Positions 8,047 through 60,377 of a stretch of 64,000 nucleotides of DNA are shown one piece after another. The DNA is from a virus (lineage: Duplodnaviria > Heunggongvirae > Uroviricota > Caudoviricetes): the IMG/VR virus record IMGVR_UViG_3300010429_001251; one strand, written 5' to 3'. Each line of letters begins with the position of its first letter. The stretch's first letter is position 1. The position numbers and the translations under genes were made by a program. The notes beneath the pieces were generated by a model, which was not told the DNA's origin, did not search any database, and worked only from the letters and a program-made list of their open reading frames with translations.

Positions 8047-8070
8047 AGCTCTTAATTGAGCTTTTTTCTT
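8047..8070 (+). terminator. Rho-independent terminator (AGCTC-ttaatt-GAGCT followed by TTTTTTCTT)
   Basis: 5-bp GC-containing stem and a T-tract directly after the stop codon at 8029. Confidence 0.55.
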
Positions 8071-8183
8071 GTTTAAATCGTTTTTAACGGGGTTAAAAAT
8101 TTCAATATATACTTTGATACCTAAATAACTTTTTAAACCCCTTAACGATTAACAGCAACTTATCAGGTTTAACATTTTAATTG

Positions 8184-20947: not shown

Positions 20948-20948
20948 T

Positions 20949-25856: not shown

Positions 25857-26341
25857 TGAGTTTAGCGAAAGAATATGAAAAAATTATAAAACAAACCTTT
25901 GAGGTTGTTCCTGATGTTTCAATAATGCGTCTATACGATCCTACATCCTCATTCGCCGGAATAAAAAATATTTGTGATTATGAGCTTTACGTTCATCCTT
26001 ATTTAATATTTTTAGAGTGTAAAACATCAGCAGGAAATACTTGGAATTTTAGTAATTTATCTTCTAAACAATTAGAAGGTATGTTGGAAAAGAGTCAGAT
26101 AACCGGAATATTGGCGGGGGTTATTTTATGGTTTTATGAAAAAGATATTACCATTTTTGTTGATATTATAGAGATAAAAAGATTAATTGATGCCGGTTAT
26201 AAGTCTATAAATGCCAGTAAATTAGATGAGATTGAGCATATAGTTGTAAAGGGTCAGAAAAAAAGAACTTATTTTGAGTACGATGGTAATAATTTTAAAA
26301 CCTTGTTAAAAAGAGCCTCATATAGGAGATGGTGTAAATGA
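25856..26341 (+). CDS. small PD-(D/E)XK-like nuclease (RecU/Hjc-like resolvase candidate)
   Basis: ELYVHPYLIFLECKTS motif (E...E-C-K); paralogous core to ORF 36285..36653. Confidence 0.3.
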   Translation: MSLAKEYEKIIKQTFEVVPDVSIMRLYDPTSSFAGIKNICDYELYVHPYLIFLECKTSAGNTWNFSNLSSKQLEGMLEKSQITGILAGVILWFYEKDITIFVDIIEIKRLIDAGYKSINASKLDEIEHIVVKGQKKRTYFEYDGNNFKTLLKRASYRRWCK

Positions 26342-27378
26342 AAAAGAATATAGGCTGGGTAATGCCCAATTTTGAAACAGAAGGAAGCGGCGGTTTAAAA
26401 ACTTTGTTTGACTTTGCTAATTGTCTTTCAGGTTTATATGAGCAAGACGTTTTTGTTGCTAAAACTAAAAAAACCCAAACAGATGAGGAAGCTAGGAAAT
26501 TAATTCATAAATATTTTGGGTATATGCCTAATATAAATATTTATTGTGGGCATGAACAGATTAAAGATGACTATTATGATTTATTAATAGCTACTTGGTG
26601 TATGACTGCTTATAAAGTTAAAAACATAAGAGCTGAAAATAAGGCTTACTTTATTCAAGATTTAGAGTATATGTTTTTTCCAATGAGCGATTGGTATATG
26701 TGGGCTCAGGAGTCTTATACCTATGGGTTTAAAAATATAACTATGGGGAGATGGATAGCTAAAGAGCTTAAAAAACTATACGGCATAGATTCTCAACCTC
26801 TGGATTTTTGCGCTGATTTAGATGTCTACAAACCTTTAAATGTGGAGAGAGAAAAAGCGGTTTGTTTCTTATTTCAACCTGAAAAACATAGAAGATGTTG
26901 GGAGATGGGTTTAAAAGCTCTGCGCTATGCGAAAGACAGAATACCTGATTTAAAAGTTTATACTTATGGAAGTATTGAAGGTAGAGACATTATTAAAGAA
27001 AAGTACCCTGATTTTAAATTTTTAGGTCTTTTAGATATTAAAATGTGTAATTATCTCTATAATACTTGCCAATTAGGAATGTGTTTTAGTCCTACCAATC
27101 CAAGCAGAATTCCTTTTGAGATGTATGCGTCTGGTTTACCTGTTTTGGATTTCAATTTGGATAATAATAGGTATGATTTTTCTGAGAGTACACATAGACC
27201 GTTTGTACCAGATGAGAATACATACAATAGTTTAGGAGCTAAAATTTGTGAGTTATTATCTAATCCCGCTTATTTAGAAGTAACTGGTATAGATAATTAT
27301 AGATTTATGAGAACAAGAAAGTATGAATTAGGCTTTGACCAGTTTAGAAACGCTATAAAGGAGATCGTAGGTGTATAA
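26338..27378 (+). CDS. GT-B fold glycosyltransferase (GT4-like)
   Basis: FEMYASGLPVLDF resembles the GT4 EX7E region. Confidence 0.4.
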   Translation: MKKNIGWVMPNFETEGSGGLKTLFDFANCLSGLYEQDVFVAKTKKTQTDEEARKLIHKYFGYMPNINIYCGHEQIKDDYYDLLIATWCMTAYKVKNIRAENKAYFIQDLEYMFFPMSDWYMWAQESYTYGFKNITMGRWIAKELKKLYGIDSQPLDFCADLDVYKPLNVEREKAVCFLFQPEKHRRCWEMGLKALRYAKDRIPDLKVYTYGSIEGRDIIKEKYPDFKFLGLLDIKMCNYLYNTCQLGMCFSPTNPSRIPFEMYASGLPVLDFNLDNNRYDFSESTHRPFVPDENTYNSLGAKICELLSNPAYLEVTGIDNYRFMRTRKYELGFDQFRNAIKEIVGV

Positions 27379-36849: not shown

Positions 36850-37070
36850 TTAGATTGTTAGCCCATCTGGGAACTATTATATGTGGGTATGTTATAACTA
36901 TTCTGGTTGTATTTAATTGGATTATATTTTCTTTACAGGATTTATTTTTTGAATTGAAAAAAGCAATTGGAATGGATTATAAGGAAGTAGTTGATGAAAT
37001 TGAAACAGCCATAAGAATATTTTTAGAGTTTAAAAGGAGAAAACATAATGAGTTTAGCAAACAAATATAG
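36846..37070 (+). CDS. small membrane protein
   Basis: 74-aa ORF with an N-terminal TM helix. Confidence 0.3.
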   Translation: MIRLLAHLGTIICGYVITILVVFNWIIFSLQDLFFELKKAIGMDYKEVVDEIETAIRIFLEFKRRKHNEFSKQI

Positions 37071-38049
37071 GCCGAGAAAATTTGAAGACGTAACTGAACA
37101 AGATTTTATAATTAAAATCTTAAAAAATCAGTTAAAAGAGAAAAATGTACATAGTTTATATTTATTTATAGGTCCTGCAGGAACTGGGAAAACAACCAAT
37201 GCAAGAATTTTTGCGAATGAATTAAACGAAACAGAGGGAGCTTATGTTGAGGTAGATGCTGCTTCTAATAACAGCGTAGACAACGTTAGGGATATTATTA
37301 AAGACGCCCATCTAAAACCAGTAGGTGTTCCGTATAAGGTATATATTATAGACGAGGCTCATTTACTTAGCGCTAGTGCTGTTGGGGCTTTTTTAAAGTT
37401 ATTAGAAGAACCCCCTCAAAATGTAGTATTTATCTTTTGTACAACAGATCCACAAAAATTTCCTGCAACAATTTTTTCAAGAGGTCAAAGATTTGATTTT
37501 CAAAAAATTAGTTTTGGGGCTGTTTGTAAAAGATTAGAGTACATAGTTCTTCAAGAAAAGATAACATTAGTAGACCCAGCAGCAATTGAGTTTATAGCTA
37601 AATTAGCTGATGGAGGTATGAGAGATGCTGTAACTTTATTAGATACTTGTTTAGGTTACTCAAAAGAGTTAACTATTCCTAATGTTACCGAATCTTTAAA
37701 TGTGAGCGGTTACAAAGATTTATTTGAATCGCTTTATTATTTAGTTGAAAAGAATAAAAAAGATGCAATAGAACATCTTGAAAAAATTTATATGTCAGGA
37801 AAAGATTTAAAACTATTTTTTAAACAACTTTTAGAACTTGTTATGGATATTATGAAATATCAATTCTATACTGATTTTAAATACATTAAAGTTTCTAATC
37901 AGTATAAGAAAGATTTAGATTTTTATATTGAAAAAGATATTAATAAAGAATTGGTAGCTATAAATTCTTTATGTACTAAATTAAAATATGAACAGAATCC
38001 AAAATTAGCAGCTGAGGTGGATATAATTTTAATGTGTACGGAGGTATAA
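37048..38049 (+). CDS. Clamp-loader ATPase subunit (AAA+, RFC/gp44/DnaX-like)
   Basis: Walker A LFIGPAGTGKTT, Walker B YIIDEAHLLS, sensor-1/SRC-like FSRGQRFDF. Confidence 0.75.
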   Translation: MSLANKYRPRKFEDVTEQDFIIKILKNQLKEKNVHSLYLFIGPAGTGKTTNARIFANELNETEGAYVEVDAASNNSVDNVRDIIKDAHLKPVGVPYKVYIIDEAHLLSASAVGAFLKLLEEPPQNVVFIFCTTDPQKFPATIFSRGQRFDFQKISFGAVCKRLEYIVLQEKITLVDPAAIEFIAKLADGGMRDAVTLLDTCLGYSKELTIPNVTESLNVSGYKDLFESLYYLVEKNKKDAIEHLEKIYMSGKDLKLFFKQLLELVMDIMKYQFYTDFKYIKVSNQYKKDLDFYIEKDINKELVAINSLCTKLKYEQNPKLAAEVDIILMCTEV

Positions 38050-41314: not shown

Positions 41315-41764
41315 CAGAGTAAGGGTTTACACCCTATTAAATAAAGGGTCATTAACAGGGGTAAAAAATTTTTTATGATGTTTACCCCATACCCTTAAAA
41401 ATAAACCCCTTAAAACCCCTGCTACGTGTAACAACCCCGTAACAATTGAGTAAAGATATGGAATTTGAATCATTTATAAAGAAAATTTGTAATATAGAGT
41501 TTACTGAACATCAAAAGAAGATAATTGAGTGGATAAAAAAGAATCCAGGTAAAAAAGCTGTATTTGTAAAACCGAGATATTTAAAAGTTTACGGATGGGA
41601 GAATAAATGGAGTATTCAATAGAGCAATTACATCATATTTTTAGACTACAGTGTTGCCCAGATAAGTATTTCACAATAGGAGATTTCCAAAATTTTTGGC
41701 AAGATGAATTATATTGTCCTTTTTGTGGTACTAAATGCAGAATTAAAAAAGTGGAGGATAAGAA

Positions 41765-46215: not shown

Positions 46216-46287
46216 TTCACACCTAGCAGCAGCGTTTTTAAAGGGTTTATTTTATGGGTCAGGTCATTTAATACCTGCTCAAAAAAT

Positions 46288-46316
46288 AAACCCCTTAGTT
46301 ATGGGGTTTTATATTT
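46288..46316 (+). terminator. Rho-independent terminator (AAACCCC-ttagttat-GGGGTTT plus a T-tract) ending the plus-strand block
   Basis: 7-bp stem followed by TTTTATATTT in a convergent intergenic region. Confidence 0.55.
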
Positions 46317-46350
46317 AATAATAGTTAATTATACCCAATTTACAGGGGTA

Positions 46351-46430
46351 TTTTTAAGGGGTTTAAGGGTTAGGGGTGTATTAAGTACCTTGAAAACTTA
46401 AAACCCCGTTAAAAACGATTTTAACAGGGT
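46351..46430. repeat. G4/C4 inverted-repeat element, copy A (TTTTAAGGGGTTTAAGGGTTAGGGGTG...AAACCCCGTTAAAAACG)
   Basis: About 80-90 nt element; a directly repeated homologue lies at 58705-58772 and related copies at 8080-8160 and 41320-41450. Confidence 0.5.
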
Positions 46431-46454
46431 TTTAAAGGGTTTATATTTTAGTGA

Positions 46455-48084: not shown

Positions 48085-49350
48085 TTAATTAGACTTAAAA
48101 TTGTAAACGGGGTGTAAAATATCTACTATCTCAATAGTATCCTTAGTATTTTCAATTATATCACTCATATTTTTATAAGCCATTGGAGATTCATCTAATG
48201 TATTTCTGTTTACACAGGTAGAGTAGACCATCTTCATTGATTTTTGGTACTCCTCAAGGTCAAGAGCTGTTTTAGCTTTACTTCTACTCATTAGTCTACC
48301 AGCTCCGTGAGGGGCTGAGTAGTTCCAATCTTTATTGCCTTTACCTTTGGCTAAAATAGAACCATCTCTCATATTTATAGGAATAAGTAGTATCTCACCT
48401 TCCATAGCTGAAACTGCTCCTTTTCGTATAAAACCATCCGGTGATATATAATTATGGATAGTTTCAAAGGTTGATAATTGGAAGTTAGTATCTCCTCCTG
48501 AGATGAATTTAATAATCTTTGAAGCTATTTCTAGCCTATTTATAGATGCAAATTGTTGAGCTACTTGCATATCGTATAAGTAATTCTCAGCTAAGCCTCC
48601 TTCTAAAAAGCATAAGTCTTTGTGAAGGCTATCATAAATATTTCTATCAATACAGTCTTGTATAAAGTCGTCTACATCTACTTTAAATACATCTCTATGA
48701 TTATGTATAGCATTATGAAAATCTCTACTTTTTTGTTTGCAGTATTCATCCGCTTTGTTTTGATAGTACGTGGCTATTTTATGTCCAAAGTTTCTACTTC
48801 CTGAATGGATTATAAGAAACTTATCTTTAGCTGCATTTTCAGCTATTTCAATGAAGTGATTCCCTCCTCCAAGAGATCCTAAAGATTTTAAATGGCGCTC
48901 ATATGTTTTAGAATCCCCTATACGATTGCATACATCTTTAATTCCATTAGAGTTTTTATCGGTTATTAAAGAGTTTATCTTTGGGTTAACTTCATTGCCG
49001 TGAGGTATACTCTTTCTAATGAACATATCCAAGTAGCCATAACTTAAATCAGCTTGACCTAGTCTAACAGTTAACATTCCGCATCCTATATCTACCCCAA
49101 TTAAATTAGGAATAATTCGACTTGTAGACATAGTAGATGTAAAACCTACAACACACCCTTTGCCTGCGTGTACATCTGGCATTATTTTTATAGATTCATT
49201 TTTAAACATAGGGTGGTTACAGATGCTGTAGATTTGTGAGATTGCTTCTTGTTCCACATTGTCTGTGTAAATTGCTGCTGTATTGTATTTTCCAGTTACT
49301 TCAATCATAATATCCTCTTTCTTTATCTTTCTCATCAGCTGGCTCCGCAA
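48085..49350 (-). CDS. rtcB: RtcB-family RNA 3'-phosphate ligase
   Basis: RtcB motifs: PDVHAGKGCVVGFT, GGGNHFIE, IHSGSRNFGH, and C-terminal APHGAGR-like motif. Confidence 0.8.
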   Translation of the reverse strand: MRSQLMRKIKKEDIMIEVTGKYNTAAIYTDNVEQEAISQIYSICNHPMFKNESIKIMPDVHAGKGCVVGFTSTMSTSRIIPNLIGVDIGCGMLTVRLGQADLSYGYLDMFIRKSIPHGNEVNPKINSLITDKNSNGIKDVCNRIGDSKTYERHLKSLGSLGGGNHFIEIAENAAKDKFLIIHSGSRNFGHKIATYYQNKADEYCKQKSRDFHNAIHNHRDVFKVDVDDFIQDCIDRNIYDSLHKDLCFLEGGLAENYLYDMQVAQQFASINRLEIASKIIKFISGGDTNFQLSTFETIHNYISPDGFIRKGAVSAMEGEILLIPINMRDGSILAKGKGNKDWNYSAPHGAGRLMSRSKAKTALDLEEYQKSMKMVYSTCVNRNTLDESPMAYKNMSDIIENTKDTIEIVDILHPVYNFKSN

Positions 49351-50066: not shown

Positions 50067-50249
50067 TTAAAATACCTGTTTAAATTTTAAATTATCTATT
50101 ATTTTCAGTAATACTTTAACTTGTTCTAAGGAAAGTTCGTCCACATACATATTAGGATTTGTAGACTGCATACAGTTCATTCCTTCAATTAAAGTTTTCT
50201 GAGCCTTAATAATATTATCCATATCAGTTAAACTAAAAGATAAATTCAT
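50067..50249 (-). CDS. hypothetical small protein
   Basis: 60-aa ORF. Confidence 0.3.
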   Translation of the reverse strand: MNLSFSLTDMDNIIKAQKTLIEGMNCMQSTNPNMYVDELSLEQVKVLLKIIDNLKFKQVF

Positions 50250-50983
50250 AAGATAGCCTCCTGCTTCCCTTGCACCGTAATCCCTTTATAAGTGTACAGC
50301 CCTTTATATTTTTCATTATTTAAAACTCTCTTAACTAACATAGGATAAATCTTTAAAGTTATTCCAGAACGCTGGTACACTCTTTTTATAGAATTTGAAA
50401 TATACTGGTATCCGTACCCCTGATTGTGTAGATTAAAAATTTCTCTAACTATAACAGCTTCATCCTCATTTAAGACTAATTGCTTATTCTCAGCCGTATA
50501 GCCAAAAGGTGGGCGACCAGCACAGTAGCCGCCTGTTTTAGCCTTTTGGATTTTACCGGCACACAATCTTTCAGTAATCCTACTCCTCTCGAATTCTGAA
50601 AATGCGCCGATAATCTGCCTCATTAATCTCCCCGTTGGATCATCTGCCCTAAGTGGTTCTGCCACCGATATGATCTCTATCCCGAATTTTAGTAACTCTT
50701 TTTCTATGAATAACTGTAGCATTAAGTCTCGGGCAATTCTATCAAGTTTCGCCACTATGACATGTTTAAAGCCACCTTCTTTTGCAGCCACAAACATATC
50801 AGATAAAGCTGGCCTTATTTCTTTAGATCCCGACACGCCCTCTTCAATAAATTCTTGAACTAACTCTAAATTATGCAGCTTGCAATATCTTTCGATATCT
50901 TCACGCTGAGAGTCAAGTCCAAATTTATCTTCACCGAGCTGGTTCTCGGTAGAAACTCTAAGGTATGCTACAGCCTTATTCAT
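50246..50983 (-). CDS. Serine recombinase (resolvase/invertase family)
   Basis: N-terminal catalytic motif AVAYLRVSTENQ and the downstream resolvase-domain pattern (DRIARD, DPTGRLM). The likely start is the internal Met (MNKAVAYLRVS). Confidence 0.75.
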   Translation of the reverse strand: MNKAVAYLRVSTENQLGEDKFGLDSQREDIERYCKLHNLELVQEFIEEGVSGSKEIRPALSDMFVAAKEGGFKHVIVAKLDRIARDLMLQLFIEKELLKFGIEIISVAEPLRADDPTGRLMRQIIGAFSEFERSRITERLCAGKIQKAKTGGYCAGRPPFGYTAENKQLVLNEDEAVIVREIFNLHNQGYGYQYISNSIKRVYQRSGITLKIYPMLVKRVLNNEKYKGLYTYKGITVQGKQEAIL

Positions 50984-52988
50984 AAATAACTCCTTTATCA
51001 GATTCAATTAAATTATCACTTTGTATCTTATAATCTTCATTTAATTTGCGTAAACTTTTATGTAGAACCTGTAAAAGTATTTCACAATCTTCTACTTTTA
51101 ACATATCTTTTCTACAAAATCTTCTTTGTACGTTACGGAGGTGGGTAAGAAGAAAGTTTTTTAAATCTTCTTCTTTACTCTTTCTAATATCATCTATAAG
51201 ATAACGGTCTTTGGTGTGTAATATAGCTTCATAACTAGGATAAAGAGGATGTTGTGAGTTAAGATATCCGAATGTTTTATCTAAGATTGGGTTTAATAGT
51301 TTAAGGTTTTCTAAATGTTCTTTATGCCGTGTATGGGGGTTTAATCCTCTGATTACATTATTATCATTCACGTAGTTATATAAGAATTCATCAAATTCGT
51401 GAGAATTCTGCCTAATAAATCTGGAATAAGTAGTGGAATAAACATCCCCGTTATATTCTATTCTTTCATTATCACTAGGATATCTAGTGTTTTTCTGAAT
51501 ATAATTTATAATAAGCTTAACCCAAAATGTTCTAGAAAGCTTGTTTAAGTGATATTTATTACAAATCTGTTCTAAAGTGGTGTAGTGGGTTATCGTATAT
51601 CTAGAATTTACTTCAAAATTTAGTTGATAAAAAACCTCTAATATATCTAAATTTGTGCATTGTGTTCTTTCTTTATTTACAGCAATTTTGGCAATTTTAA
51701 GATATTTTTTATTACTACTAATTATTCCTTTAGCTGTATTCTTTTTGGTTTTATATTTTAAGATATTATGAGTAGTTAAGGAGGTAGCTAGTTCCATAGT
51801 GGCAGCTGTAACTATTTTTTCTTCTTCAAAGCCTATCTTATAAAACCGCTTAGTTATATCTTTACCATTTCTTCTAGATAATCTACTAAATAGCTGATAA
51901 ATTTTATTTAGATTTAGAGTGCCGCTTAGATCTACTATATTTTCTAAATCTACATAGTTAAACCCTAATAAAGCTCTTTGAACTACTACTAAACATTTTA
52001 TAGACGTATTTTGTTTAAAATATTCGATATTTTTACTGTCAGAATCTTCGTTAGTACACGATAATACAGAAGAAATTCCTAATTTAATTAGCAGATTATG
52101 TAAATATTTAGCAGCTTTCTGATTATGGCATACAATCAAGGTTTTTTCTAAATTATTTTTTAATTCTTTAAATTCGTTAATGACTTCTATGTGTTTAATC
52201 CAATCTGTATCACTCTGTATCTGCACTAGCTTATCAAATTTAAAATTCAAGATATTAAATTGAACTTTTATTATAGTTTCAAAAATTTCCTGTAAAGTTA
52301 TTCTTATATCAATATCTGGTATATCTAGGGTTTCTTTCAATTCTTCTGTATCTGTGTATATATCTTTAACACTCCCGAAAGACAAAGGAGTAGATATAAT
52401 ATAATAACGCATATCAGCGAACCATTTTTCCCCTAATTGTTTAGATTTAGTATATAGATCTAAGAATGTATGTCCTATTAATTTATATCTAGGGCTCATA
52501 TCATTTTCGTATAAAAAACAAGAGGGTGTCGCTGTTAATAGTAGCTGTTTATTGATGTTATTTTTAATTAAAATTTCTTGATTTTCTGTAGATAGATATC
52601 TGTTATGCGCTTCATCTACTACTAATAAATCAATATCTAGGGGTTCTTTATTTTTAAATGTTTGTGGAAGGGTTATGATAACATTGGCGGTATAATCAAT
52701 ATCGTCGCCAGCATTAAGCATTTGAATCTTATATTTAGGATTTAAACTACATAAAATTTCTTCATAATTTTGAAGTTTTAGTACAGTCTGCCCCTCTGCA
52801 AAAAATACTACTCTATTATAACCATTTTCTAACAAGTGTTCTATTACTTTAGCGGCTATAAATGTTTTTCCTGAACCTGGAGGTTCCATTAATACAGGAA
52901 TCAAGTCAGTAGTTTTAATAATAGTTAGAATATTTTGTATATCTTCAACTTGGTAATCTCTTAAAGATTGTTTTAGAATAGTTTGCAT
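50976..52988 (-). CDS. DEAD/DEAH-box superfamily-2 helicase
   Basis: Walker A LMEPPGSGKTF, DEAH motif LLVVDEAHN, TAT-like motif LLLTATP. Confidence 0.65.
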   Translation of the reverse strand: MQTILKQSLRDYQVEDIQNILTIIKTTDLIPVLMEPPGSGKTFIAAKVIEHLLENGYNRVVFFAEGQTVLKLQNYEEILCSLNPKYKIQMLNAGDDIDYTANVIITLPQTFKNKEPLDIDLLVVDEAHNRYLSTENQEILIKNNINKQLLLTATPSCFLYENDMSPRYKLIGHTFLDLYTKSKQLGEKWFADMRYYIISTPLSFGSVKDIYTDTEELKETLDIPDIDIRITLQEIFETIIKVQFNILNFKFDKLVQIQSDTDWIKHIEVINEFKELKNNLEKTLIVCHNQKAAKYLHNLLIKLGISSVLSCTNEDSDSKNIEYFKQNTSIKCLVVVQRALLGFNYVDLENIVDLSGTLNLNKIYQLFSRLSRRNGKDITKRFYKIGFEEEKIVTAATMELATSLTTHNILKYKTKKNTAKGIISSNKKYLKIAKIAVNKERTQCTNLDILEVFYQLNFEVNSRYTITHYTTLEQICNKYHLNKLSRTFWVKLIINYIQKNTRYPSDNERIEYNGDVYSTTYSRFIRQNSHEFDEFLYNYVNDNNVIRGLNPHTRHKEHLENLKLLNPILDKTFGYLNSQHPLYPSYEAILHTKDRYLIDDIRKSKEEDLKNFLLTHLRNVQRRFCRKDMLKVEDCEILLQVLHKSLRKLNEDYKIQSDNLIESDKGVIYE

Positions 52989-53366: not shown

Positions 53367-55025
53367 CTATCTTATTTTTATATGGCTTGGAATTGGATTT
53401 GTTGTGCATTCGATATGATAAAAAGGTTGCTCTCTACCCTCTTCAGTTTCACGTATAGCGCAGGTTATGAAGGTTGACGCATATTTGTATATATCTATAA
53501 TATTTTGTTTAACACAGGTATTATCTACGGGCTTACGTACTATTTTAAATTGATGTTCATTAATAAATTGTAAGCAGTGTTCTTTACATTCGTTTGATTC
53601 GCATAAGAAATAAGTTCTTCTACTAGAATCGTCTAAAGGTTGGCACATATTTAGATCTATAGCGTAGTCGTTTGTTAATAGTCTGCGAACTCTAGCACAG
53701 TTTTTAACAGGGCGCTGCTGTTCAAAAAAGTAGCTTACATCATCTATAGTGTATGGTTTAAACACATCAAAAGCAGCCTTGTCTACTAAAAGTCTTTCAT
53801 GATAGTGCGCTACTTGTTCCTCATTGCTCATATCAATAAAATAAATGCTGGCATCAATATCATCATATCTAAGATCAATCAAGTATTTAGATTCTATCAT
53901 GCCATTTTGTAGCCACTGAAAAGCTTCTAATCGGGTTTCAATAGTGTCAAATCCTAAGATAATATATTTAGATCTTACATACTTAAAATTTATCTTCTGA
54001 AATGGTCTGTTATGTCCCTTGGCTTTTTTATTTAAGTATTTTAAATAAGCTACAGATGCCTCGGATTTAGCCTTTGATACATCATTCTTATTATAGAATT
54101 GATTTCTCAAATTTTTATTTTCCACAGAATCAAAGTCTATTAATTTAAAAGTATTTAAAAAAGTAAGTCTTGACATTTGATCTAATAAATTAGTACCTGC
54201 ACTACCTAAGCCTAGGCAGATTACATCTTTAGTTACTTTTTGTAAGTTTTCATAGCCTCGGCTAATCTGTTCTCCGGTTATCTCGGGATAGCAGGTTGAT
54301 TTATTTTTAGTGCGTCTAGTAATATAATAATGGTCATCTTGTCTAAGTTTTTTAAAAACAGCCTCACTATAAAAACTTAGATTAACCTCATTTATATTGT
54401 CCGGTAAGCAATCAGCGCAGTATCCTGTATATAAATAAATTGGGTTATCATCGGGAGTAATACATACTTTACAATCCCTACAAAATACGGCTTTATCAGC
54501 ATGTTTAAGACTTACATGCTTTTGAAGGTAGATTTTAGCAGGATCGTAAGCACTACTAGGATTAGGTTTTTCTAAAAAATTGATTAAATGCCAAACTACA
54601 TTTATATCTTCAAACACATCTTTGCATTTAAAATCATTACAAAGGGATTGAGTAGTAAAATATGTGCCTACTCGTACACTTGTTTGATAAGGCATATCTT
54701 CAGTAGGCTCTACAGCTTCATATAACTCTATATCACTTGGAGTAGGAAAAACATTATAGTGCATTATTTTAGTCTTTTTAGGTTTAATTATTCTAATATT
54801 CTCTGAAGAATTATTCACTAAAAATTGAAGCTTAAATGATTCTGTTTTCCCTGTTAGTGGAATAGGAAGATTAGCGGCTCTAGGTGCTGTAATTAACCAA
54901 TACTCTGCACCACTGTAATCTACGTACTTTTTCTTTTTAATAGATTTAATACGTGTTTTAGTAGTAGTTTTGTCTATTTCTGTCTTTTTAACCACGCTTG
55001 GGGCAATAGGTGTTTCTACAGTCAT
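53367..55025 (-). CDS. E1-like (ThiF/MoeB/UBA-type) adenylyltransferase with N- and C-terminal cysteine-rich regions
   Basis: Rossmann region VICLGLGSAGTNLLDQMSRLTFLNTFKLIDFDSVENKNLRNQ matches the E1/ThiF consensus (GxGxxG ... lvDfDvVelSNLnRQ). Cys clusters CRDCKVC..CADC and C..C...C..C. Confidence 0.7.
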   Translation of the reverse strand: MTVETPIAPSVVKKTEIDKTTTKTRIKSIKKKKYVDYSGAEYWLITAPRAANLPIPLTGKTESFKLQFLVNNSSENIRIIKPKKTKIMHYNVFPTPSDIELYEAVEPTEDMPYQTSVRVGTYFTTQSLCNDFKCKDVFEDINVVWHLINFLEKPNPSSAYDPAKIYLQKHVSLKHADKAVFCRDCKVCITPDDNPIYLYTGYCADCLPDNINEVNLSFYSEAVFKKLRQDDHYYITRRTKNKSTCYPEITGEQISRGYENLQKVTKDVICLGLGSAGTNLLDQMSRLTFLNTFKLIDFDSVENKNLRNQFYNKNDVSKAKSEASVAYLKYLNKKAKGHNRPFQKINFKYVRSKYIILGFDTIETRLEAFQWLQNGMIESKYLIDLRYDDIDASIYFIDMSNEEQVAHYHERLLVDKAAFDVFKPYTIDDVSYFFEQQRPVKNCARVRRLLTNDYAIDLNMCQPLDDSSRRTYFLCESNECKEHCLQFINEHQFKIVRKPVDNTCVKQNIIDIYKYASTFITCAIRETEEGREQPFYHIECTTNPIPSHIKIR

Positions 55026-55101
55026 AAGTTTCTCCTTCTATTCATAAGCCATCGTCAGTGCGGCTATTTGCCGCAGACCGCTCAGTTAAGAGCGGTTTCG
55101 G

Positions 55102-55755
55102 CTATACTCCTGCTTCAACTATAATTGCTTTCATGTCTTCCAGACATTCCTTATACTCACCTTCCTCTGTAAAAAGACCTTTACTTTGTTCGATAAGTTC
55201 TTCTATAGTTTTGTAAGCGTTTGAATATGTTCTTGTAACTGGTTGAGCTTTTTCTTCAGTACAACCCGCTCTCTTAGCTGTAGCTACGAAAACTGTAGTA
55301 TCCGCTTTAAACTCGTCTGTAGGTTTTAAAGCTCTACCCTGACCGATTAACACGCCTGAAGATAATCCCAGATCTCTTTCAACTTGTGCTACGGTACTTC
55401 CAGCTTTAATTTCTACTTCCTCGTCCTTTTCTCTACCCTGACGGACAACCACTAATTTAACTGTAGATGCTTCCTTAACAGCCTCTTTCTTAGCAACCGG
55501 CTTTTTAGCTGGGGCTGCTTTTGTAGTTGTAGTTTTCTTAGCCGCCGGTTTTTTAGTAGATGTTTTTGAGGTAGTTGCTTTTTTAGCTGTTCCTACTAAC
55601 TCAACCTTAACCTTATCAGCATCCGCTGCTGAGATATTGCTTGATATTGTTTTGTAGGAAATTTTTAACTTATCTAAAACATCGGTAACTTCTTTATTAG
55701 TTACTCCTATTTCTTTAGATAAATCATAAATACGCACTGTTTCTTTCTTTGTCAT
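55102..55755 (-). CDS. IF2-N-like domain, K/T/A-rich linker, then a ThiS/MoaD-like beta-grasp (ubiquitin-like) domain with a C-terminal extension
   Basis: IF2_N-like VRIYDLSKEIGVTNKEVTDVLDKL and a low-complexity KKPAAKKTTTTKAAPAKKPVAKK linker. The segment VKLVVVRQG...EVEIKAGSTVAQVERDLGL...VLIGQGRALKPTDEFKADTTVFVATAKRAG follows the ThiS/MoaD pattern and ends in AG before a 50-aa tail. The start is moved to the ATG at 55755, behind an AAGGAG RBS. Confidence 0.45.
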   Translation of the reverse strand: MTKKETVRIYDLSKEIGVTNKEVTDVLDKLKISYKTISSNISAADADKVKVELVGTAKKATTSKTSTKKPAAKKTTTTKAAPAKKPVAKKEAVKEASTVKLVVVRQGREKDEEVEIKAGSTVAQVERDLGLSSGVLIGQGRALKPTDEFKADTTVFVATAKRAGCTEEKAQPVTRTYSNAYKTIEELIEQSKGLFTEEGEYKECLEDMKAIIVEAGV

Positions 55756-55772
55756 TGTGACTCTTCTCCTTT

Positions 55773-56582
55773 TCATTTTCTATTAACTATACAAGATTCA
55801 ATTGGTAATTGGAAGCCGGTTTGTTTTGCTACCTCCTTTCTATTAACTACGGCTTTTTTATATGTAACCTTTTCTTCTACGCAATTTGCTGCTACTTCTT
55901 CTTTGCATTTATTGTAAATAGGCTCAAACATATTACGATCTAATTTAGCGGGTATTTCTATGGTTAATTTAGTTGTGTGCCCATTACCTAAAAAGAACCC
56001 TGCTGAGATATTACCTGCTCGGTTTATTATTAGGTATGGGAACCCTTCTTTATCTCTGAGGTCGTTTATTTCTTCATAGTTATCCATATCTGTTTTACTT
56101 GGCTGAACCATAGATATATTAGCGTGACTGTGCCAATCAAGCACCCACTTATGTAGCTCTTTTCTAGGAACACTAGCCATAAAAGAAGCTACTGCTACCG
56201 CATCGGCTTCTGCGTGACTACTCTTCACTATTTGATTAGGAAGAATAGCTATATCGGTAACAACCCCATTCTCTATTTTGCCAAAACCGGCTATTTCTAG
56301 TTTACCTACTAGCTGGACATAACAATTCATCTTTATCCAAGCTTCCGAGGTAAATGTTATCTTTTCAGGAATGTTTCCTGTCATAAGATTTTTTAGATAT
56401 GTTAAACATTCTTGAGGTCTTACGGGTATATGGTTTATTATAGGGGTTTCTACCTCAGCTACTTCTGGGTATTCGGGTATAACTTCATTTCTAAACCCGT
56501 AGATGTGTTCATACTGAGAGGGGGGAATTCCTGGTAGTGTTCCATTTCCTTTTCGTCTACCTGTGTGCGCTTTTGATTTCAT
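55773..56582 (-). CDS. JAB/MPN (JAMM) metalloprotease-domain protein
   Basis: JAMM motif HSHANISMVQPSKTD (HxH-x8-S-xx-D) with an upstream acidic residue (SSHAEAD). Confidence 0.55.
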   Translation of the reverse strand: MKSKAHTGRRKGNGTLPGIPPSQYEHIYGFRNEVIPEYPEVAEVETPIINHIPVRPQECLTYLKNLMTGNIPEKITFTSEAWIKMNCYVQLVGKLEIAGFGKIENGVVTDIAILPNQIVKSSHAEADAVAVASFMASVPRKELHKWVLDWHSHANISMVQPSKTDMDNYEEINDLRDKEGFPYLIINRAGNISAGFFLGNGHTTKLTIEIPAKLDRNMFEPIYNKCKEEVAANCVEEKVTYKKAVVNRKEVAKQTGFQLPIESCIVNRK

Positions 56583-56585
56583 CTC

Positions 56586-57164
56586 TTACTCCTTTTCAAT
56601 TGTGTAAAACTGATTATTATTCCTATGAGCTAACTTTTGTATAAAATCCTCTACGTGTATAGGCGCATAGTTATGACAGTCTATGCCTACATCCATAGAT
56701 CTTCCAAATACCTGTGTTAATGTTCCATGCTCGTGCCCAAAGGCATGAAATGAATTATGATAGCTACAATTCCAACGTAAGTGTGGATAGTGAGAAAGCC
56801 ATACTTTATGTATTCCTACTTTTATCATTGCAGTTGTTCTAAAGTTTTGAATACGTCCATCCTTTTTAAAAGTGATGTAATCCATTTCAGGATCATGATT
56901 TCCTCCAATCACATACATTTTTATGTCTGGACGAATTTGTTTAAGCATTTGATCTATAACATCTCTTGATCTTTTACCGCCTTCATGAAGACTTATACTG
57001 TTTAAATCGCCTAAATTATAGAGAACGGCATCTTTAGGTAATTTGTTTACGTTCTCGATAATAGTCTCATTGTGTTCTTCAATTGTAGCAAACGGTCTTT
57101 TACAATGATGTAAAATGTTAAAGTGATTCAAATGCCAATCGGCAGTTAAAAACAGGTCTTGCAT
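56586..57164 (-). CDS. calcineurin-like metallophosphoesterase
   Basis: DWHLNH, GDLNS, GGNHD and GHEH motifs. Confidence 0.65.
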   Translation of the reverse strand: MQDLFLTADWHLNHFNILHHCKRPFATIEEHNETIIENVNKLPKDAVLYNLGDLNSISLHEGGKRSRDVIDQMLKQIRPDIKMYVIGGNHDPEMDYITFKKDGRIQNFRTTAMIKVGIHKVWLSHYPHLRWNCSYHNSFHAFGHEHGTLTQVFGRSMDVGIDCHNYAPIHVEDFIQKLAHRNNNQFYTIEKE

Positions 57165-57192
57165 AATTCTTTCCCTCTATCCAAACTAACTA

Positions 57193-57336
57193 CTAATCTT
57201 CTTCACTCTCGTCTTGTTCTTTTTGTATTACCTCTTCATAATGATCCAAGCAATAATATTTTCTCTCGTGGACAAGCGCTTCTGTTTCATAATCTAGCAT
57301 CTTCCCACACACGCAGCATTTGGTGTACATAATCAT
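57193..57336 (-). CDS. small zinc-ribbon protein
   Basis: 47 aa with CCVCGK...C.DH; ATGA overlap with the upstream stop. Confidence 0.3.
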   Translation of the reverse strand: MIMYTKCCVCGKMLDYETEALVHERKYYCLDHYEEVIQKEQDESEED

Positions 57337-58463
57337 TTATACTCCTTTACCTTTACATCCACATTCAGCTTAGTTATATTCAATCTAATAACAAATTCAG
57401 TTGTTCTGTACTCTACGTCATCTAAAAAGGTAACTTGTTTCTCACCCTTAAGCGTTTCAATACGCTTCTTTAATAGGTCTCCTACCACTGTGAGATCATC
57501 TTTCTCTATTTTCACAGGTTTAGACTCTAGCTGATTTTTTAAGTTTAAAATCTCTAGATCTCGGGTGTGTAGAATCTCTTTCATCTTTTTCAACATAGGG
57601 GTTAAATTTTTAGCCGCTTTATCTAAAGATAATTCAGGCTCTTCCTTAGCAACTTTGGTTTGGGGCTCAGGTTTATTTCTAAGCGCATAATCTATACAGT
57701 ATTTTTTATATGCATCTGTAAATCCTGGTATACTCTCTCTGTTTATTTTTAAATTCCAAAATAGTGTATTTAAAGATCCCACTGTTCTATCGGGGAGTAA
57801 CATCATTAGCTGCTCAATAGCCATATTATTTAAGACAGCCTTTTTAATTATGTCTAATTCATATTGCTTCCATTTATTAGCATAGTTTCCTTTTTTCTCG
57901 GTTAGTTTCTTACTTAACCATTTAAATCTTGTTGATTCAGCCTTTGCTGGCTCTTTTACCGCTGTTTTAGTTCTTAAGATATCACAGGCTATTTTTTCAC
58001 CCTCTTTTATTTGTTTTCTTAATTCAGATATTTTAGAAACCAATCCTAACCTTGATCTTCCAGGAAGATTAATTTCTCTAGAGGGTAGATTACTCCTAAT
58101 GCAATCTTTGATATAATCAATCTCTTTCTTAGAGTAGTTTTTATTTGTTCTAAGTTCTTCTACGGGATTATGTTCATATTTAGACATGTTTTGTAAGCCT
58201 TCTATTTGCTGATAAACAGAGGCTTTAGTTTTATCTTTAAAGAATTCCATAATCTCTGGAATGGTAGAGGAAGAACTTACTAGCTCAGCTAAATCTTTTA
58301 AGTCATCTAGACTAAACTTATCTGTTCCACTCTCATCCAATTTCAGTTTTTTAGCTCTCTTGTAAATATTAAGCTCTTCGCCAATATTATCTTTGAGCTC
58401 TTTAAGTGCTACCTTACCATAATTCTGGCTAAGGTATTCATCCATAGCAACGTTCCAGTCCAT
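57333..58463 (-). CDS. hypothetical protein (coiled-coil rich)
   Basis: 376-aa ORF, first large gene after the RHH regulator. Confidence 0.5.
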   Translation of the reverse strand: MDWNVAMDEYLSQNYGKVALKELKDNIGEELNIYKRAKKLKLDESGTDKFSLDDLKDLAELVSSSSTIPEIMEFFKDKTKASVYQQIEGLQNMSKYEHNPVEELRTNKNYSKKEIDYIKDCIRSNLPSREINLPGRSRLGLVSKISELRKQIKEGEKIACDILRTKTAVKEPAKAESTRFKWLSKKLTEKKGNYANKWKQYELDIIKKAVLNNMAIEQLMMLLPDRTVGSLNTLFWNLKINRESIPGFTDAYKKYCIDYALRNKPEPQTKVAKEEPELSLDKAAKNLTPMLKKMKEILHTRDLEILNLKNQLESKPVKIEKDDLTVVGDLLKKRIETLKGEKQVTFLDDVEYRTTEFVIRLNITKLNVDVKVKEYK

Positions 58464-58480
58464 TAGTTTCTCCTTCTAAT

Positions 58481-58666
58481 TTATTGTGTGGCTTCTATTT
58501 TTTCAAAATATTCTGTTAAAGCCTGAATTATTATTGTTGTTCTAGGAATACCCGTTTTCTTATTTCTACGTTCTATTTTAGCTAATAGTTCATTAGGAAT
58601 TTGATAACTCCTAGGTGTGCAGTTATCCTTTTCTTTAGGTCTGCCTACGTGTCTATCGTTTACCAT
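58481..58666 (-). CDS. Ribbon-helix-helix (CopG/Arc/MetJ-like) DNA-binding protein
   Basis: RHH pattern GRPKE...RSYQIPNELLAKIE...GIPRTTIIIQALTEYF; 61 aa. Confidence 0.5.
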   Translation of the reverse strand: MVNDRHVGRPKEKDNCTPRSYQIPNELLAKIERRNKKTGIPRTTIIIQALTEYFEKIEATQ

Positions 58667-58704
58667 CTAAGATCTCCTTGTCCGTGTTTACTTCATATAA
58701 TCAA

Positions 58705-58772
58705 TTTTAAGGGGTTTATTTTTTGGGTTAGGGGTTAAACTACCTAAACAATTTTTAAACCCCGTTAACAGT
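58705..58772. repeat. G4/C4 inverted-repeat element, copy B (TTTTAAGGGGTTTATTTTTTGGGTTAGGGGTT...AAACCCCGTTAACAG)
   Basis: Direct-repeat homologue of copy A at 46351-46430; upstream of the RHH/E1-JAB operon. Confidence 0.5.
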
Positions 58773-58809
58773 CATTTAAAACCGTGTATTTTTAACTATT
58801 TAAATAATA

Positions 58810-58843
58810 AAAGGGTTTAAAAAATTAAACCCTTTTATTTCTT
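58810..58843. terminator. Bidirectional hairpin terminator (AAAGGGTTTA-aaaaat-TAAACCCTTT with T-tracts on both sides)
   Basis: 10-bp stem. T-rich on the plus side (TATTTCTTT) and A-rich upstream, which is T-rich on the minus strand, so it can terminate minus gene 58864..59256. Confidence 0.5.
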
Positions 58844-60126: not shown

Positions 60127-60377
60127 ATACTACCCCATCATAAGTCTAAGACTTATTTAAATAGTATAGGGAATTACTTCTTATGGGTTTCATTATTTAG
60201 TTGTCAAGGTACACATAAAACCTTTTTACAGGGGTTTTTTAACCTGTTAAATATATTTTACCATATAAAACAATATAAAACAATAAATTAATATTACTTA
60301 ACATTTATCAACCCTATACTTATGGATTGATAGAGCTAAAAATAATAAAACTAATATAATTGCTAATATGACCATGT

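What the first reader, a model, noticed from the sequence alone, without database searches (positions are those of the whole stretch)
46240..46450. Family of G4/C4 inverted-repeat elements at every major intergenic boundary, including a direct-repeat pair 12.3 kb apart
Related elements recur at 8080-8160, 41320-41450, 46240-46450 and 58690-58840. They are built from GGGG(T)TTAAA / TTTAAACCCC half-sites and carry a shared AAACCCCGTTAAC(A)G box.

Copies A (46351-46430) and B (58705-58772) are clearly homologous, same-orientation repeats: TTTTAAGGGGTTTA...GGGTTAGGGGT...AAACCCCGTTAA. They sit in a 33% GC genome where G4 runs are otherwise rare.

The elements coincide with terminators and operon starts. 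Copy B lies just upstream of the RHH/E1-JAB operon, and the copy at 8080-8160 lies upstream of the replication initiator.

They may be binding sites for a phage regulator (the RHH protein or the phage sigma factor) or combined bidirectional terminator/promoter cassettes. They could also be recombination sites delimiting exchangeable genome modules.
Basis: seen in the sequence. Interest (0 to 1): 0.55.

Follow-up and report, generated by a model that had tools for sequence, protein, structure and literature searches.

The report
Repeated boundary cassettes in a phage
An uncultured ~101-kb phage carries five related copies of a ~65-base, hairpin-forming G4/C4 cassette at the ends and starts of its main gene blocks; this is most likely ordinary transcription punctuation of a kind already described in T4-like phages, and what it does was not tested.

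Summary
The repeat family is real. A profile built from four copies finds all four at 58-69 bits, plus a fifth, weaker copy (46231-46297). Each copy has a 5' box TTAAC(R)GGGGT and a 3' box AAACCCCTTAA, 51 nt apart (48 in one). The two boxes can pair to close a hairpin.

All five copies point the same way as local transcription. Each lies shortly after the end of the preceding ORF. Two also sit 41-46 nt before the next start codon.

G4 runs are not rare (202 in 64 kb). Several intergenic gaps carry no copy.

The family is specific to this lineage:
- GenBank phages, IMG/VR, JGI metagenome contigs and 185,579 genomes gave no related hit.
- The one related phage (63-72% aa identity) has C4/G4 box clusters in the three gaps that can be compared. 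Their architecture differs, and boxes are flipped.
- Copies within the genome resemble each other more than their positional counterparts in the relative.

Best reading: composite transcription-boundary cassettes like the PeSLs of T4-like phages. An operator array for the adjacent RHH protein is a serious rival. There is no covariation support and no Rfam match.

Verdict: a new variant of a known kind, of modest interest.

The parts
8070..8150 (+). Cassette copy c8. 5' box at 8084-8094 and 3' box at 8135-8145. It lies 55 nt after the stop at 8029, directly after a terminator, and 218 nt before the initiator-like gene.
   Evidence: nhmmer 57.9 bits. Box matches. The fold pairs the two boxes, z = -3.06. 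TTAACG-18-TATACT inside the copy, and TTTACA-17-TATACT at 8184-8212 downstream.
8047..8062 (+). Intrinsic terminator hairpin (AGCTC stem plus T-run) that ends the upstream unit, just before c8.
41338..41438 (+). Cassette copy c41. 5' box at 41352-41362 and 3' box at 41403-41413, with two further C4 boxes at 41416 and 41435. It lies 46 nt before the ATG at 41458.
   Evidence: nhmmer 63.3 bits. 81% complementary to c58 over 64 nt (I1). TTAACA-16-TATGAT. Second-strongest C>G sense window in 64 kb. One of only two quadruplex-capable runs, 41385-41419.
46231..46297 (+). Cassette copy c46a, the most diverged copy. It lies 16 nt after the last + strand gene. Its 3' box overlaps the 5' arm of the terminator.
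   Evidence: nhmmer 22.8 bits, E 1.3e-5. 73% direct repeat with 58705-58763 (D3). Strongest hairpin: -28.7 kcal/mol, z = -3.9.
46288..46309 (.). Shared bidirectional intrinsic terminator between the convergent operons: AAACCCC, an 8-nt loop, GGGGTTT, with T-runs on both strands.
46349..46426 (-). It lies 30 nt after the last - strand gene and points toward the shared terminator.
   Evidence: nhmmer 58.0 bits. 88% match of its 5' extension to c8 (I5). The fold gives an 18-bp closing stem. Quadruplex-capable run at 46345-46376. TTAAAA-18-TATAAT at 46357-46328.
46408..46436 (+). Extra inverted 5' box (TTAACAGGGTT). Together with the 5' box of c46b it forms a near-perfect palindrome.
   Evidence: 46421-46431, +. 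nhmmer partial hit, E 0.045.
58702..58782 (-). It lies 96 nt after the stop of the 130-aa gene and 41 nt before the RHH start codon.
   Evidence: nhmmer 69.3 bits. Identical in three other metagenome contigs of the same phage. Partly conserved in the relative at L020:3441-3528.
58806..58839 (.). Long A/T-flanked GGG/CCC hairpin (terminator-like) between the early genes and c58. It is conserved in the relative.
60226..60240 (-). Solitary box AAACCCCTGTAA in the 60127-60377 intergenic gap, close to a member of the repeated promoter-like motif family. A weaker counterpart exists in the relative.
58481..58666 (-). Ribbon-helix-helix gene directly downstream of c58. It is the most obvious candidate for a factor that reads the boxes; this is inference only.
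   Evidence: Pfam RHH_3, E 1.3e-5. 68% identical to the relative's orthologue.

Best explanation
The five copies are cis-acting transcription-boundary cassettes of one phage lineage. Each is an inverted pair of ~13-nt boxes, TTAAC(R)-GGGG-TT(T)AA and TAAA-CCCC-TTAA. The boxes enclose ~35 variable bases and one or two further C-tracts.

Proposed mechanism (inferred, not shown):
- On the sense transcript the boxes pair into a 12-18-bp closed hairpin, followed by a C-rich, G-poor tail. This insulates or attenuates read-through from the upstream unit. It works alongside the ordinary terminators next to it.
- The 5' box doubles as a -35-like TTAACR hexamer. A -10-like hexamer lies 16-18 nt downstream in some copies, so those copies also start or control the next unit.

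Shown here: sequence similarity among copies is kept above that of positional orthologues. Recombination between copies is one inferred cause.

This is the same design as the PeSL promoter/stem-loop cassettes of T4-like phages, here in an unrelated AT-rich phage.
For: - Real, polar family with fixed 51-nt box spacing.
- All five copies are co-oriented with local transcription. They lie 16-96 nt after the preceding stop codon. For c41 this is 39 nt after an unverified small ORF, or 210 nt after the last confident gene. c41 and c58 are also 46 and 41 nt before a start codon.
- c46a and c46b flank the shared bidirectional terminator of the convergent operons. c8 and c58 directly follow terminator hairpins.
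- The minimum-energy fold pairs the 5' box with the 3' box in c8, c46b, c58 and the relative's c58 counterpart. RNAalifold on 7 sequences keeps a 13-pair closing stem.
- Sigma-70-like matches start at the 5' box in c41 (TTAACA-16-TATGAT, 10/12) and c8 (TTAACG-18-TATACT). By eye the relative's c58 counterpart has TTAACG-16-TATAGT.
- c41 and c46b are among the three most C>G sense windows in 64 kb.
- In the relative, C4/G4 boxes in non-coding DNA sit in the same three gaps, apart from one tRNA-like stretch in a fourth gap.
- Paralogues are 0.68-0.77 identical, positional orthologues 0.62-0.68, and shuffled background 0.61.
- The PeSL papers describe sigma-70 promoters combined with stem-loops 'generally involving GGGG...CCCC' that act as terminators and as recombination points (PMC2839356, PMC4122927).
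Against: - There are no transcript data.
- The cassette hairpins lack a U-tract, so they are not canonical intrinsic terminators.
- The -10-like hexamer is poor in c58 (TAGGTA) and c46b. Promoter-like matches in these regions are only modestly above shuffled sequence: 29 against 23.5 +/- 5.7, 11 against 7.5 +/- 2.4, and 9 against 3.4 +/- 1.7 around c8.
- Fold z-scores are modest, -1.2 to -3.1. The antisense strands fold at least as well.
- RNAalifold shows one compensatory pair and a positive covariation term.
- In the relative, the c41 counterpart has no G box. Elsewhere boxes are flipped (GGGG to CCCT, C-box to G-box), so the hairpin architecture is not strictly conserved.
- There are only five copies, against about 50 PeSLs per T4-like genome.
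Confidence: 0.42

Rival explanations
1. Operator or roadblock array. The 13-nt box (TTAA arms around a G4/C4 centre) is the double-stranded DNA site of a phage-encoded regulator. The most plausible candidate is the RHH protein encoded right after c58. Others are the 71-aa sigma-region-4-like protein and the MerR-like protein. The regulator would repress, activate or block elongation at the borders of the three middle-type operons, in the manner of mycobacteriophage stoperators.
For: - Boxes occur in clusters of 2-9 per gap, in both orientations.
- Between the two phages, box positions and A/T arms are kept while the G4/C4 centre flips. That preserves a quasi-palindromic site but not a hairpin.
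- Within-genome homogenisation of copies is expected if all copies must match one protein.
- The RHH is 68% identical between the two phages, and the 5' box TTTTTAACGGGGTT is identical next to its gene in both.
- A solitary box lies in the 60127-60377 gap, close to a promoter-like motif.
- Stoperators are polar, asymmetric sites spread through intergenic DNA (PMC9283540).
Against: There is no binding test. Two copies (c46a, c46b) have no downstream gene to regulate. Boxes inside a cassette point both ways, unlike stoperators. There are only 4-5 loci rather than dozens. The A/T-rich arms may be conserved simply because the genome is 67% A+T.
Confidence: 0.27
2. RNA processing or stability element. 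The long imperfect hairpin in the sense transcript is a double-strand-specific RNase (RNase III-type) cleavage site, or a protective 5'/3' stem-loop. It would cut the long polycistronic RNAs into module-sized messages and stabilise them, as do the homologous RNase III sites between T7 genes and in Bacillus phage SP82 early RNA (both from my own knowledge).
For: - All copies are co-oriented with transcription and lie in untranslated spacers.
- Closing stems are 12-18 bp with a recurring bulged C.
- Several pairs are G-U wobbles on the sense strand, in the window copies and in the relative.
- The closing stem is kept in the relative's c8 counterpart through different bases.
Against: No covariation support. 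Antisense strands fold as well or better. The relative's c41 counterpart lacks the 5' arm. A structure-only role does not explain why paralogues keep the same sequence. No Rfam family matches.
Confidence: 0.14
3. Recombination substrates only. The copies are module-border homology patches, or sites for the serine recombinase at 50246-51007. They would have no regulatory role and would mediate deletion, inversion or exchange of the 12.3-kb (c46b-c58) and 33-kb (c8-c41) blocks.
For: - c46b/c58 and c8/c41 are direct-repeat pairs bracketing whole gene blocks.
- Gene content next to the 46-kb border differs between the two phages. After RtcB the window has 73, 115, Band_7 and 63 aa proteins. The relative has 230, 166, 181, 69 and Fic.
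- Concerted evolution of copies.
- A resolvase-type recombinase lies inside the 12.3-kb block.
Against: Positions are syntenic and stable in the relative at three sites. No variant junctions were seen among contigs of the same phage. 65-nt repeats at 70-77% identity are poor substrates for homologous recombination. There is no evidence linking the recombinase to these sites.
Confidence: 0.07
4. A small selfish mobile element (MITE- or REP-like) with terminal inverted repeats that has spread within the phage genome.
For: Terminal inverted boxes with TTAA at both ends, small size and intergenic location.
Against: No target-site duplication is visible. Two-box pattern scans of IMG/VR, JGI metagenome contigs and 185,579 genomes gave no related copy, only single chance hits. 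The sites are syntenic in a relative at only 63-72% aa identity.
Confidence: 0.03

Closest known systems
PeSL (promoter-early stem-loop) cassettes of T4-like phages (Arbiol et al. 2010, PMC2839356; Comeau et al. 2014, PMC4122927)
   Same: Repeated intergenic cassettes of about 65-100 bp. They combine a sigma-70-like -35/-10 with a stem-loop 'generally involving GGGG...CCCC', placed between, over or beside the promoter boxes. They sit between a stop codon and the next SD/ATG. They are proposed to terminate upstream transcription, start downstream transcription and serve as homology patches for recombination.
   Different: There is no sequence relationship, and this is not a T4-like phage (its DNA polymerase is ~40% identical to Clostridium phage phiCTP1). 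It has five copies rather than about 50. The copies sit at the borders of large core modules, not around single ORFans in hyperplastic regions. The loop is long (~35 nt). Promoter quality is uneven. Two copies sit at operon 3' ends with no downstream gene.
Stoperators of cluster A mycobacteriophages (L5 gp71 sites; PMC9283540, PMC6550527)
   Same: Short asymmetric sites in intergenic DNA that are polar with respect to transcription. Their sequence is homogenised within a genome and diverges between relatives together with the repressor. They stop elongation at unit borders.
   Different: Stoperators are single 13-bp sites, 20-30 per genome, all in one orientation. Here the boxes come in inverted pairs and clusters at only 4-5 loci. 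The phage shows no sign of lysogeny functions apart from a resolvase-type recombinase. Binding is untested.
RNase III processing sites of T7 and of Bacillus phage SP82 early RNA (own knowledge, not checked in the library)
   Same: Mutually homologous imperfect hairpins of about 60 nt, in the spacers between gene blocks of long polycistronic phage transcripts, all in the sense orientation.
   Different: There is no cleavage evidence. Stems are shorter and very A-U rich, and the architecture is not conserved in the relative.
Bidirectional intrinsic terminators of AT-rich genomes
   Same: The same building plan: an A-run, a G/C tract, a loop, the complementary tract and a T-run. True examples lie next to the cassettes (46288-46309, 58806-58839).
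   Different: The cassettes have 30-40-nt loops, no U-tract after the 3' arm, and a conserved polarity and box sequence.

Membership tests
PeSL cassettes (T4-like phages) | Stem-loop built from a poly-G tract followed by a poly-C tract | tested here: met
   GGGG in the 5' box pairs with CCCC in the 3' box or an internal box in all five copies.
PeSL cassettes (T4-like phages) | Strong sigma-70-like -35 and -10 with an AT-rich upstream region in every cassette | tested here: inconclusive
   c41 has TTAACA-16-TATGAT (10/12) and c8 has TTAACG-18-TATACT (9/12). c58 and c46b have TAGGTA / AAGGTA at that position. Promoter-like matches are only modestly above shuffles in two regions (29 vs 23.5; 11 vs 7.5) and clearer around c8 (9 vs 3.4).
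PeSL cassettes (T4-like phages) | [quoted passage not shown] | tested here: inconclusive
   True for c41 and c58 (46 and 41 nt to the start codon). Not true for c8 (218 nt, with a separate promoter) or for c46a/c46b, which have no downstream gene.
PeSL cassettes (T4-like phages) | Tens of copies concentrated in hyperplastic regions, flanking ORFans | tested here: not met
   Five copies in at least 84 kb examined (window plus 10 kb each side), all at borders of large modules.
PeSL cassettes (T4-like phages) | Indels or replacements between close relatives are bounded by cassettes | tested here: inconclusive
   Gene content differs next to the 46-kb border, but both contigs of the relative end before that junction.
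Stoperators (cluster A mycobacteriophages) | Many (over 20) single 13-bp asymmetric sites, all in one orientation relative to transcription | tested here: not met
   Boxes are clustered at 4-5 gaps and occur in both orientations within a cassette. Only the cassette as a whole is polar.
Stoperators (cluster A mycobacteriophages) | Bound by the phage immunity repressor, which blocks elongation | not testable with these tools
   Needs EMSA or ChIP and transcription assays.
Canonical intrinsic terminator | G+C-rich stem, loop of 3-8 nt, U-tract directly after the stem | tested here: not met
   The terminator scan calls 46288-46309, 58806-58839 and 8047-8062 but none of the cassette hairpins. Cassette loops are 30-40 nt with no U-tract.
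MITE / REP-type mobile repeat | Terminal inverted repeats plus target-site duplication, with copies at non-syntenic sites or in other genomes | tested here: not met
   Inverted boxes are present, but no duplication is visible. No related copy was found in IMG/VR, JGI metagenomes, 185,579 genomes or GenBank phages. Positions are syntenic in the relative.
Any Rfam RNA family | Covariance-model score at or above the gathering threshold | tested here: not met
   No gathering-level hit in the window. Only sub-threshold chance hits over the cassettes: DapZ 27.9/56, IS128 24.3/80, L20 leader 22/58.7.
Rho-dependent terminator (rut site) | A C-rich, G-poor sense window of about 60-80 nt | tested here: inconclusive
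   c41 (C 23 / G 4) and c46b (18 / 3) rank 2nd and 3rd of all 60-nt windows. 7985-8044, just before c8, ranks 1st. c58 and c46a do not stand out. Function cannot be tested here.
G-quadruplex-forming sequence | Four runs of at least 3 G with loops of at most 12 nt | tested here: inconclusive
   Met at c46b (46345-46376) and c41 (41385-41419). These are the only two in 64 kb, against a shuffle mean of 0.15. Not met at c8, c46a or c58.

The most novel reading that the evidence does not exclude
The phased C-tracts make c41 and c46b the only quadruplex-capable sequences in 64 kb. In both, the G-rich strand is the template strand at the end of a transcription unit. The cassettes could therefore be structure-based (G-quadruplex or i-motif) polar barriers to RNA or DNA polymerases. 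The phage also encodes 7-deazaguanine synthesis genes (QueD, QueE-like, FolE). 7-deaza-G cannot form Hoogsteen pairs (from my own knowledge). Barrier strength could then depend on whether the DNA has been modified yet, which would give a modification-gated switch between early and later transcription or replication.
Probability: 0.04. Interest if true: 0.75.

Novelty: new variant of a known kind. Interest (0 to 1): 0.3.

Why it matters
If confirmed, this would show that the PeSL-type solution has arisen independently in an AT-rich phage with a Firmicute-type ribosome-binding site, unrelated to T4. That solution combines a promoter or operator and a GGGG...CCCC stem-loop in one homogenised cassette that punctuates transcription. 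It would also give a ready map of the transcription units of an uncultured ~101-kb phage, and a candidate regulator/operator pair (RHH plus TTAAC-G4-TTAA box) to test. It opens no long-standing question. Repeated regulatory motifs in phage intergenic DNA are common, and the mechanism remains inferred.

Tried and rejected
**Searches for the element elsewhere**
- Megablast and blastn against GenBank phages found nothing.
- The exact two-box pattern gave 0 hits in IMG/VR.
- In JGI metagenome contigs it gave 7 hits, none sharing any protein with the window.
- In one genome per species it gave 5 single hits, all in Proteobacteria. All of these are chance matches.

**Searches for relatives through neighbouring proteins**
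- Searches of IMG/VR with the 376-aa protein and the Band_7 protein found nothing.
- The initiator gave only an N-terminal match in an unrelated context.
- More distant RtcB-bearing phages (59% identity, GC 26%) have no such boxes.
- The 48%-identity DnaB contig has no DNA on file.

**Ideas considered and dropped**
- Replication origin iterons. The likely iterons are the 3x24-nt repeats inside the initiator gene (D5).
- Alternative or specialised promoter classes (sigma-B or ECF-type, MerR-type long-spacer) and a cre site. By eye there is no consistent -10 or dyad in the copies.
- The 3' box TTAAAA(T) as a -10 hexamer. The final T is present only in c58 and its orthologue.
- tRNA or known RNA families.
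- Covariation as proof of RNA structure. Seven sequences give one compensatory pair and an unfavourable covariation term.

Full report
**Context**

The window is phage DNA with 32-33% G+C. Genes run on the + strand up to 46215 and on the - strand from 46455 onward, so the reported interval 46240-46450 is the gap between two convergent gene blocks.

The window belongs to a ~101-kb metagenomic phage (ENA ERZ795055 NODE_112, 101,121 nt; also in JGI 3300025902). It encodes its own replisome: an HTH_36 initiator-like protein, DnaB, DNA polymerase A, clamp, clamp loader and NAD ligase. It also encodes RtcB, a protein hitting a PHROG family named 'RNA-binding protein', and a ThiF/JAB cluster. Several genes are preceded by strong AAGGAGG-type ribosome-binding sites. 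The nearest cultured phages are only ~40% identical in DNA polymerase (Clostridium phage phiCTP1).

Yes, in its core.
- Two short boxes are strongly over-represented. TTAACRGGGGT with <=1 mismatch gives 11 hits against 1.6 expected. AAACCCCTTAA gives 11 against 2.9. No shuffle reached either count.
- 16 of these 22 hits lie in the four named gaps, which together are ~1.4% of the window.
- The exact 11-mer AAACCCCTTAA occurs four times, once per locus. Each occurrence is 51 nt (48 nt in one) downstream of a TTAAC(R)GGGG box on the same strand.
- The repeat finder links the loci: 41352-41415 is 81% complementary to 58705-58768 over 64 nt, and 8070-8102 is 88% complementary to 46394-46426.
- An nhmmer profile of the four copies scores them at 58-69 bits. 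It also finds a fifth, weaker copy at 46231-46297 (+), at 22.8 bits and E 1.3e-5, and a partial inverted 5' box at 46408-46436.
- No further copy lies in the 10 kb beyond either end of the window.

- G4/C4 runs are not rare. There are 202 in the window, about twice expectation, and only 18 are intergenic.
- The cassettes are not at every intergenic boundary. Eight other gaps have none, one has a single box, and the 1-kb divergent control region beyond the window has no credible match.

**Anatomy**

Oriented by homology, a copy reads: TTAAC(R)GGGGT(T)(T)AAAA, then ~16 nt, a TA-initial hexamer, TTTA(A)CCCC(T)A(A)CCC, an A-run, and TAAACCCCTTAAAA.
- The 5' and 3' boxes are inverted versions of one ~13-nt motif: TTAA arms around a G4/C4 centre. 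One extra C (CA in c41) is always present on the 5' side.
- Minimum-energy folds pair the two boxes into a 12-18-bp closing stem in c8, c46b and c58. In c41 the G4 pairs with the first internal C4 instead. c46a is the strongest hairpin, with z = -3.9 on the + strand and -4.85 on the - strand.
- The cassette hairpins have 30-40-nt loops and no U-tract. The terminator scan does not call them, but it does call the neighbouring simple hairpins 8047-8062, 46288-46309 (both strands) and 58806-58839.

**Position and polarity**

All five copies have the same orientation relative to local transcription: c8, c41 and c46a on +, and c46b and c58 on -.
- Each lies shortly after the end of the preceding ORF: 55, 39, 16, 30 and 96 nt. 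For c41 the 39 nt refers to an unverified small ORF that is not conserved in the relative. The last confident gene before c41 ends 210 nt upstream.
- c41 and c58 are also 46 and 41 nt upstream of the next start codon. c8 is followed by a separate sigma-70-like promoter (TTTACA-17-TATACT, 8184-8212), which is conserved in the relative.
- c46a and c46b face each other across the shared bidirectional terminator and have no downstream gene.
- The copies therefore also form two direct-repeat pairs bracketing whole blocks: c8...c41 (33 kb, replication genes) and c58...c46b (12.3 kb, the RHH-to-Band_7 block).
- With only five copies, and c46a's orientation resting on a 10-bit difference, the polarity is suggestive rather than statistically strong.

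**Relatives**

Only one related lineage could be found, on two contigs of JGI 3300047552. It is 63% identical in DnaB, 70% in clamp-loader delta and 72% in RtcB.

Gene order is syntenic at three of the four loci. In that phage, the C4/G4 boxes in non-coding DNA fall in those three gaps, apart from one tRNA-like stretch in a fourth gap upstream of the orthologue of the window's 464-aa gene at 14995. The architecture, however, differs.
- The c58 counterpart keeps TTTTTAACGGGGTT exactly. Its 3' box is AAACCTCGTTAAAATCG. Its internal box is flipped to GGGG, and an extra C box sits upstream.
- The c8 counterpart keeps ATCGTTTTTAAC and TAAAAATT but has CCCT in place of GGGG.
- The c41 counterpart has three or four C boxes and no G box.
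- Core identities are 0.68-0.77 between paralogues in the window and 0.62-0.68 between positional orthologues. Shuffled background is 0.61 +/- 0.03. The copies are therefore homogenised within a genome.

RNAalifold on seven sequences returns a 13-pair closing stem. It has only one compensatory pair and a positive (unfavourable) covariation term. Structure is compatible with the data but not demonstrated.

No Rfam family matches. No similar DNA exists in GenBank phages. Two-box pattern scans of IMG/VR, JGI metagenome contigs and one genome per bacterial species returned only unrelated single chance hits. The family is lineage-specific and is not a host-borne or mobile repeat.

**What it most likely is**

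*Shown:* a polar, homogenised, hairpin-capable cassette at transcription-unit borders. It sits next to terminators and promoters, and its position is conserved in the only known relative.

*Inferred:* the cassettes punctuate transcription.

I favour a composite terminator/attenuator plus promoter/operator cassette (confidence 0.42). The design matches the PeSLs of T4-like phages. Those are sigma-70 promoters combined with stem-loops 'generally involving GGGG...CCCC', placed between, over or beside the -35/-10 boxes. They act as terminators and promoters and serve as recombination points (PMC2839356, PMC4122927).
- In favour: the TTAACR hexamer of the 5' box is followed at 16-18 nt by TATGAT (c41), TATACT (c8) and TATAGT (the relative's c58 counterpart). 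c41 and c46b are also among the three most C-rich, G-poor sense windows in 64 kb.
- Against: c58 and c46b have TAGGTA / AAGGTA at the -10 position. Promoter-like matches are only modestly above shuffled sequence (29 against 23.5; 11 against 7.5; 9 against 3.4 around c8). There is no U-tract. Copy number is ten-fold lower than for PeSLs.

**Rivals**
- *Operator or roadblock array for a phage regulator (0.27).* It is favoured by the box clusters, by the centre flips that keep a quasi-palindromic DNA site but not a hairpin, by the homogenisation, and by the RHH gene immediately downstream of c58. That RHH is 68% identical in the relative. It is weakened by the two copies with no gene to regulate and by the lack of any binding test.
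- *RNA processing or stability hairpin (0.14).* It fits the sense orientation and the G-U wobbles. It does not explain why the sequence is homogenised.
- *Pure recombination sites (0.07)* and *a MITE-like element (0.03).* Both are unlikely, given syntenic stability and the absence of copies elsewhere.

**Novelty and score**

This is a new variant of a known kind: a repeated composite regulatory cassette in a phage genome. It fails several PeSL membership criteria (copy number, ORFan association, lineage) while working, as far as can be inferred, in the same way.

The most novel reading not excluded concerns quadruplexes. The only two quadruplex-capable runs in 64 kb are c41 and c46b, both on the template strand. 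The phage also encodes 7-deazaguanine synthesis genes. I put the probability of that reading at ~0.04.

Overall interest is 0.3. The family is real and tidy, but it is what a phage specialist would expect to find at operon borders, and its function remains untested.

Noticed in passing
window 14353-14994 (+), upstream of the 464-aa gene at 14995-16389: The 640-nt gap holds about six repeats of a motif like AAGGATACAGACAGCAAAC, spaced ~100 nt apart. They alternate with tRNA-like D-arm and T-arm fragments. ARAGORN finds no tRNA. Rfam gives sub-threshold YrlA (Y RNA-like) hits at 14627-14733 (E 5e-4) and 14792-14852 (E 0.01). The downstream gene hits phrog_850, named 'RNA-binding protein'; I read it as Ro60-like, which is my inference and not a tool result. 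The related phage has the same kind of gap (L005:8238-8813). RtcB lies on the other strand (48085-49350). This may be a phage Ro / Y-RNA / RtcB module with an array of tRNA-like Y RNAs.
   Followed up: partly
window 8651-8722 (+), inside the HTH_36 initiator-like gene 8363-9229: Three tandem 24-nt repeats (CCTACCTGCAAAAATACGGATACC, 83-100% identical) lie inside the initiator-like gene. This resembles origin iterons embedded in an initiator gene, as in lambda O (from my own knowledge). It is a likely replication origin.
   Followed up: no
window 8215-8362 (+) and L005:1283-1432: The leader of the initiator-like gene carries a hairpin, CCTCTTTAG...CTAAAGAGG, followed by a T-run just before the ribosome-binding site. 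It is conserved in the related phage, and alternative pairings are possible. It may be a transcription attenuator controlling initiator expression.
   Followed up: partly
window 20439-23635 (+): PTPS/QueD (20439-20813), a radical-SAM QueE-like protein (20949-21596) and GTP cyclohydrolase I (23057-23635) lie together. Glycosyltransferase-like proteins are nearby (21596-22567, weak Pfam matches below the curated cut-off; 26338-27378). The phage probably replaces guanine in its DNA with a 7-deazaguanine derivative.
   Followed up: partly
window 4493-4525, 13271-13303 (+) and 60264-60299 (-): A second repeat family, TTTACTTTTAyTGTTTTATAT..TATA, matches a sigma-70-type -35/-10 layout and precedes gene blocks. 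The 60.3-kb copy is conserved in the relative (L020:2090-2120). These are probably the phage's strong early promoters. A further shared motif, GTACCTTGA(A/C)AA, occurs at 46386-46400 (+), near 60190 (-) and in L015:6247-6262.
   Followed up: no
window 53367-58666 (-): This operon opens with an RHH gene. It is followed by a 376-aa protein with no Pfam match, a weak Metallophos hit (E 9e-4), a weak Prok-JAB hit (E 3e-3), an IF2_N-domain protein and a 552-aa ThiF/E1-like protein. It looks like a ubiquitin-like conjugation or deconjugation gene set carried by a phage. It is conserved in the relative (L020:3548-8468).
   Followed up: no
window 50246-52988 (-); L020:8845-9872: A 253-aa resolvase-type serine recombinase (Resolvase plus Recombinase domains) overlaps the start of a 670-aa helicase. 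In the relative the recombinase is followed instead by a 101-aa DNA_pol_A fragment. This suggests local rearrangement or a mobile insertion.
   Followed up: no
L018:6797-8685 versus window 37048-38049: In the related phage the clamp-loader AAA+ gene is split into a 175-aa ATPase part and a 170-aa lid part by a 297-aa GIY-YIG endonuclease gene. The window has one intact 333-aa gene. This looks like a homing-endonuclease insertion or a split gene.
   Followed up: no
L015:5415-6470 (about 3.5-4.5 kb beyond the right end of the window): A 1-kb divergent intergenic region lies between oppositely transcribed early genes. It is locally G+C-rich and carries inverted copies of GGGTTTACAC(C). The same motif stands just upstream of c41 (41322-41333) and of its counterpart in the relative. 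This is probably the early control region.
   Followed up: no
L020:2190-2360: The relative has a ~170-nt G+C-richer stretch between an early promoter-like motif and the 149-aa gene. It looks structured and has no counterpart in the window. It is a possible non-coding RNA or leader.
   Followed up: no
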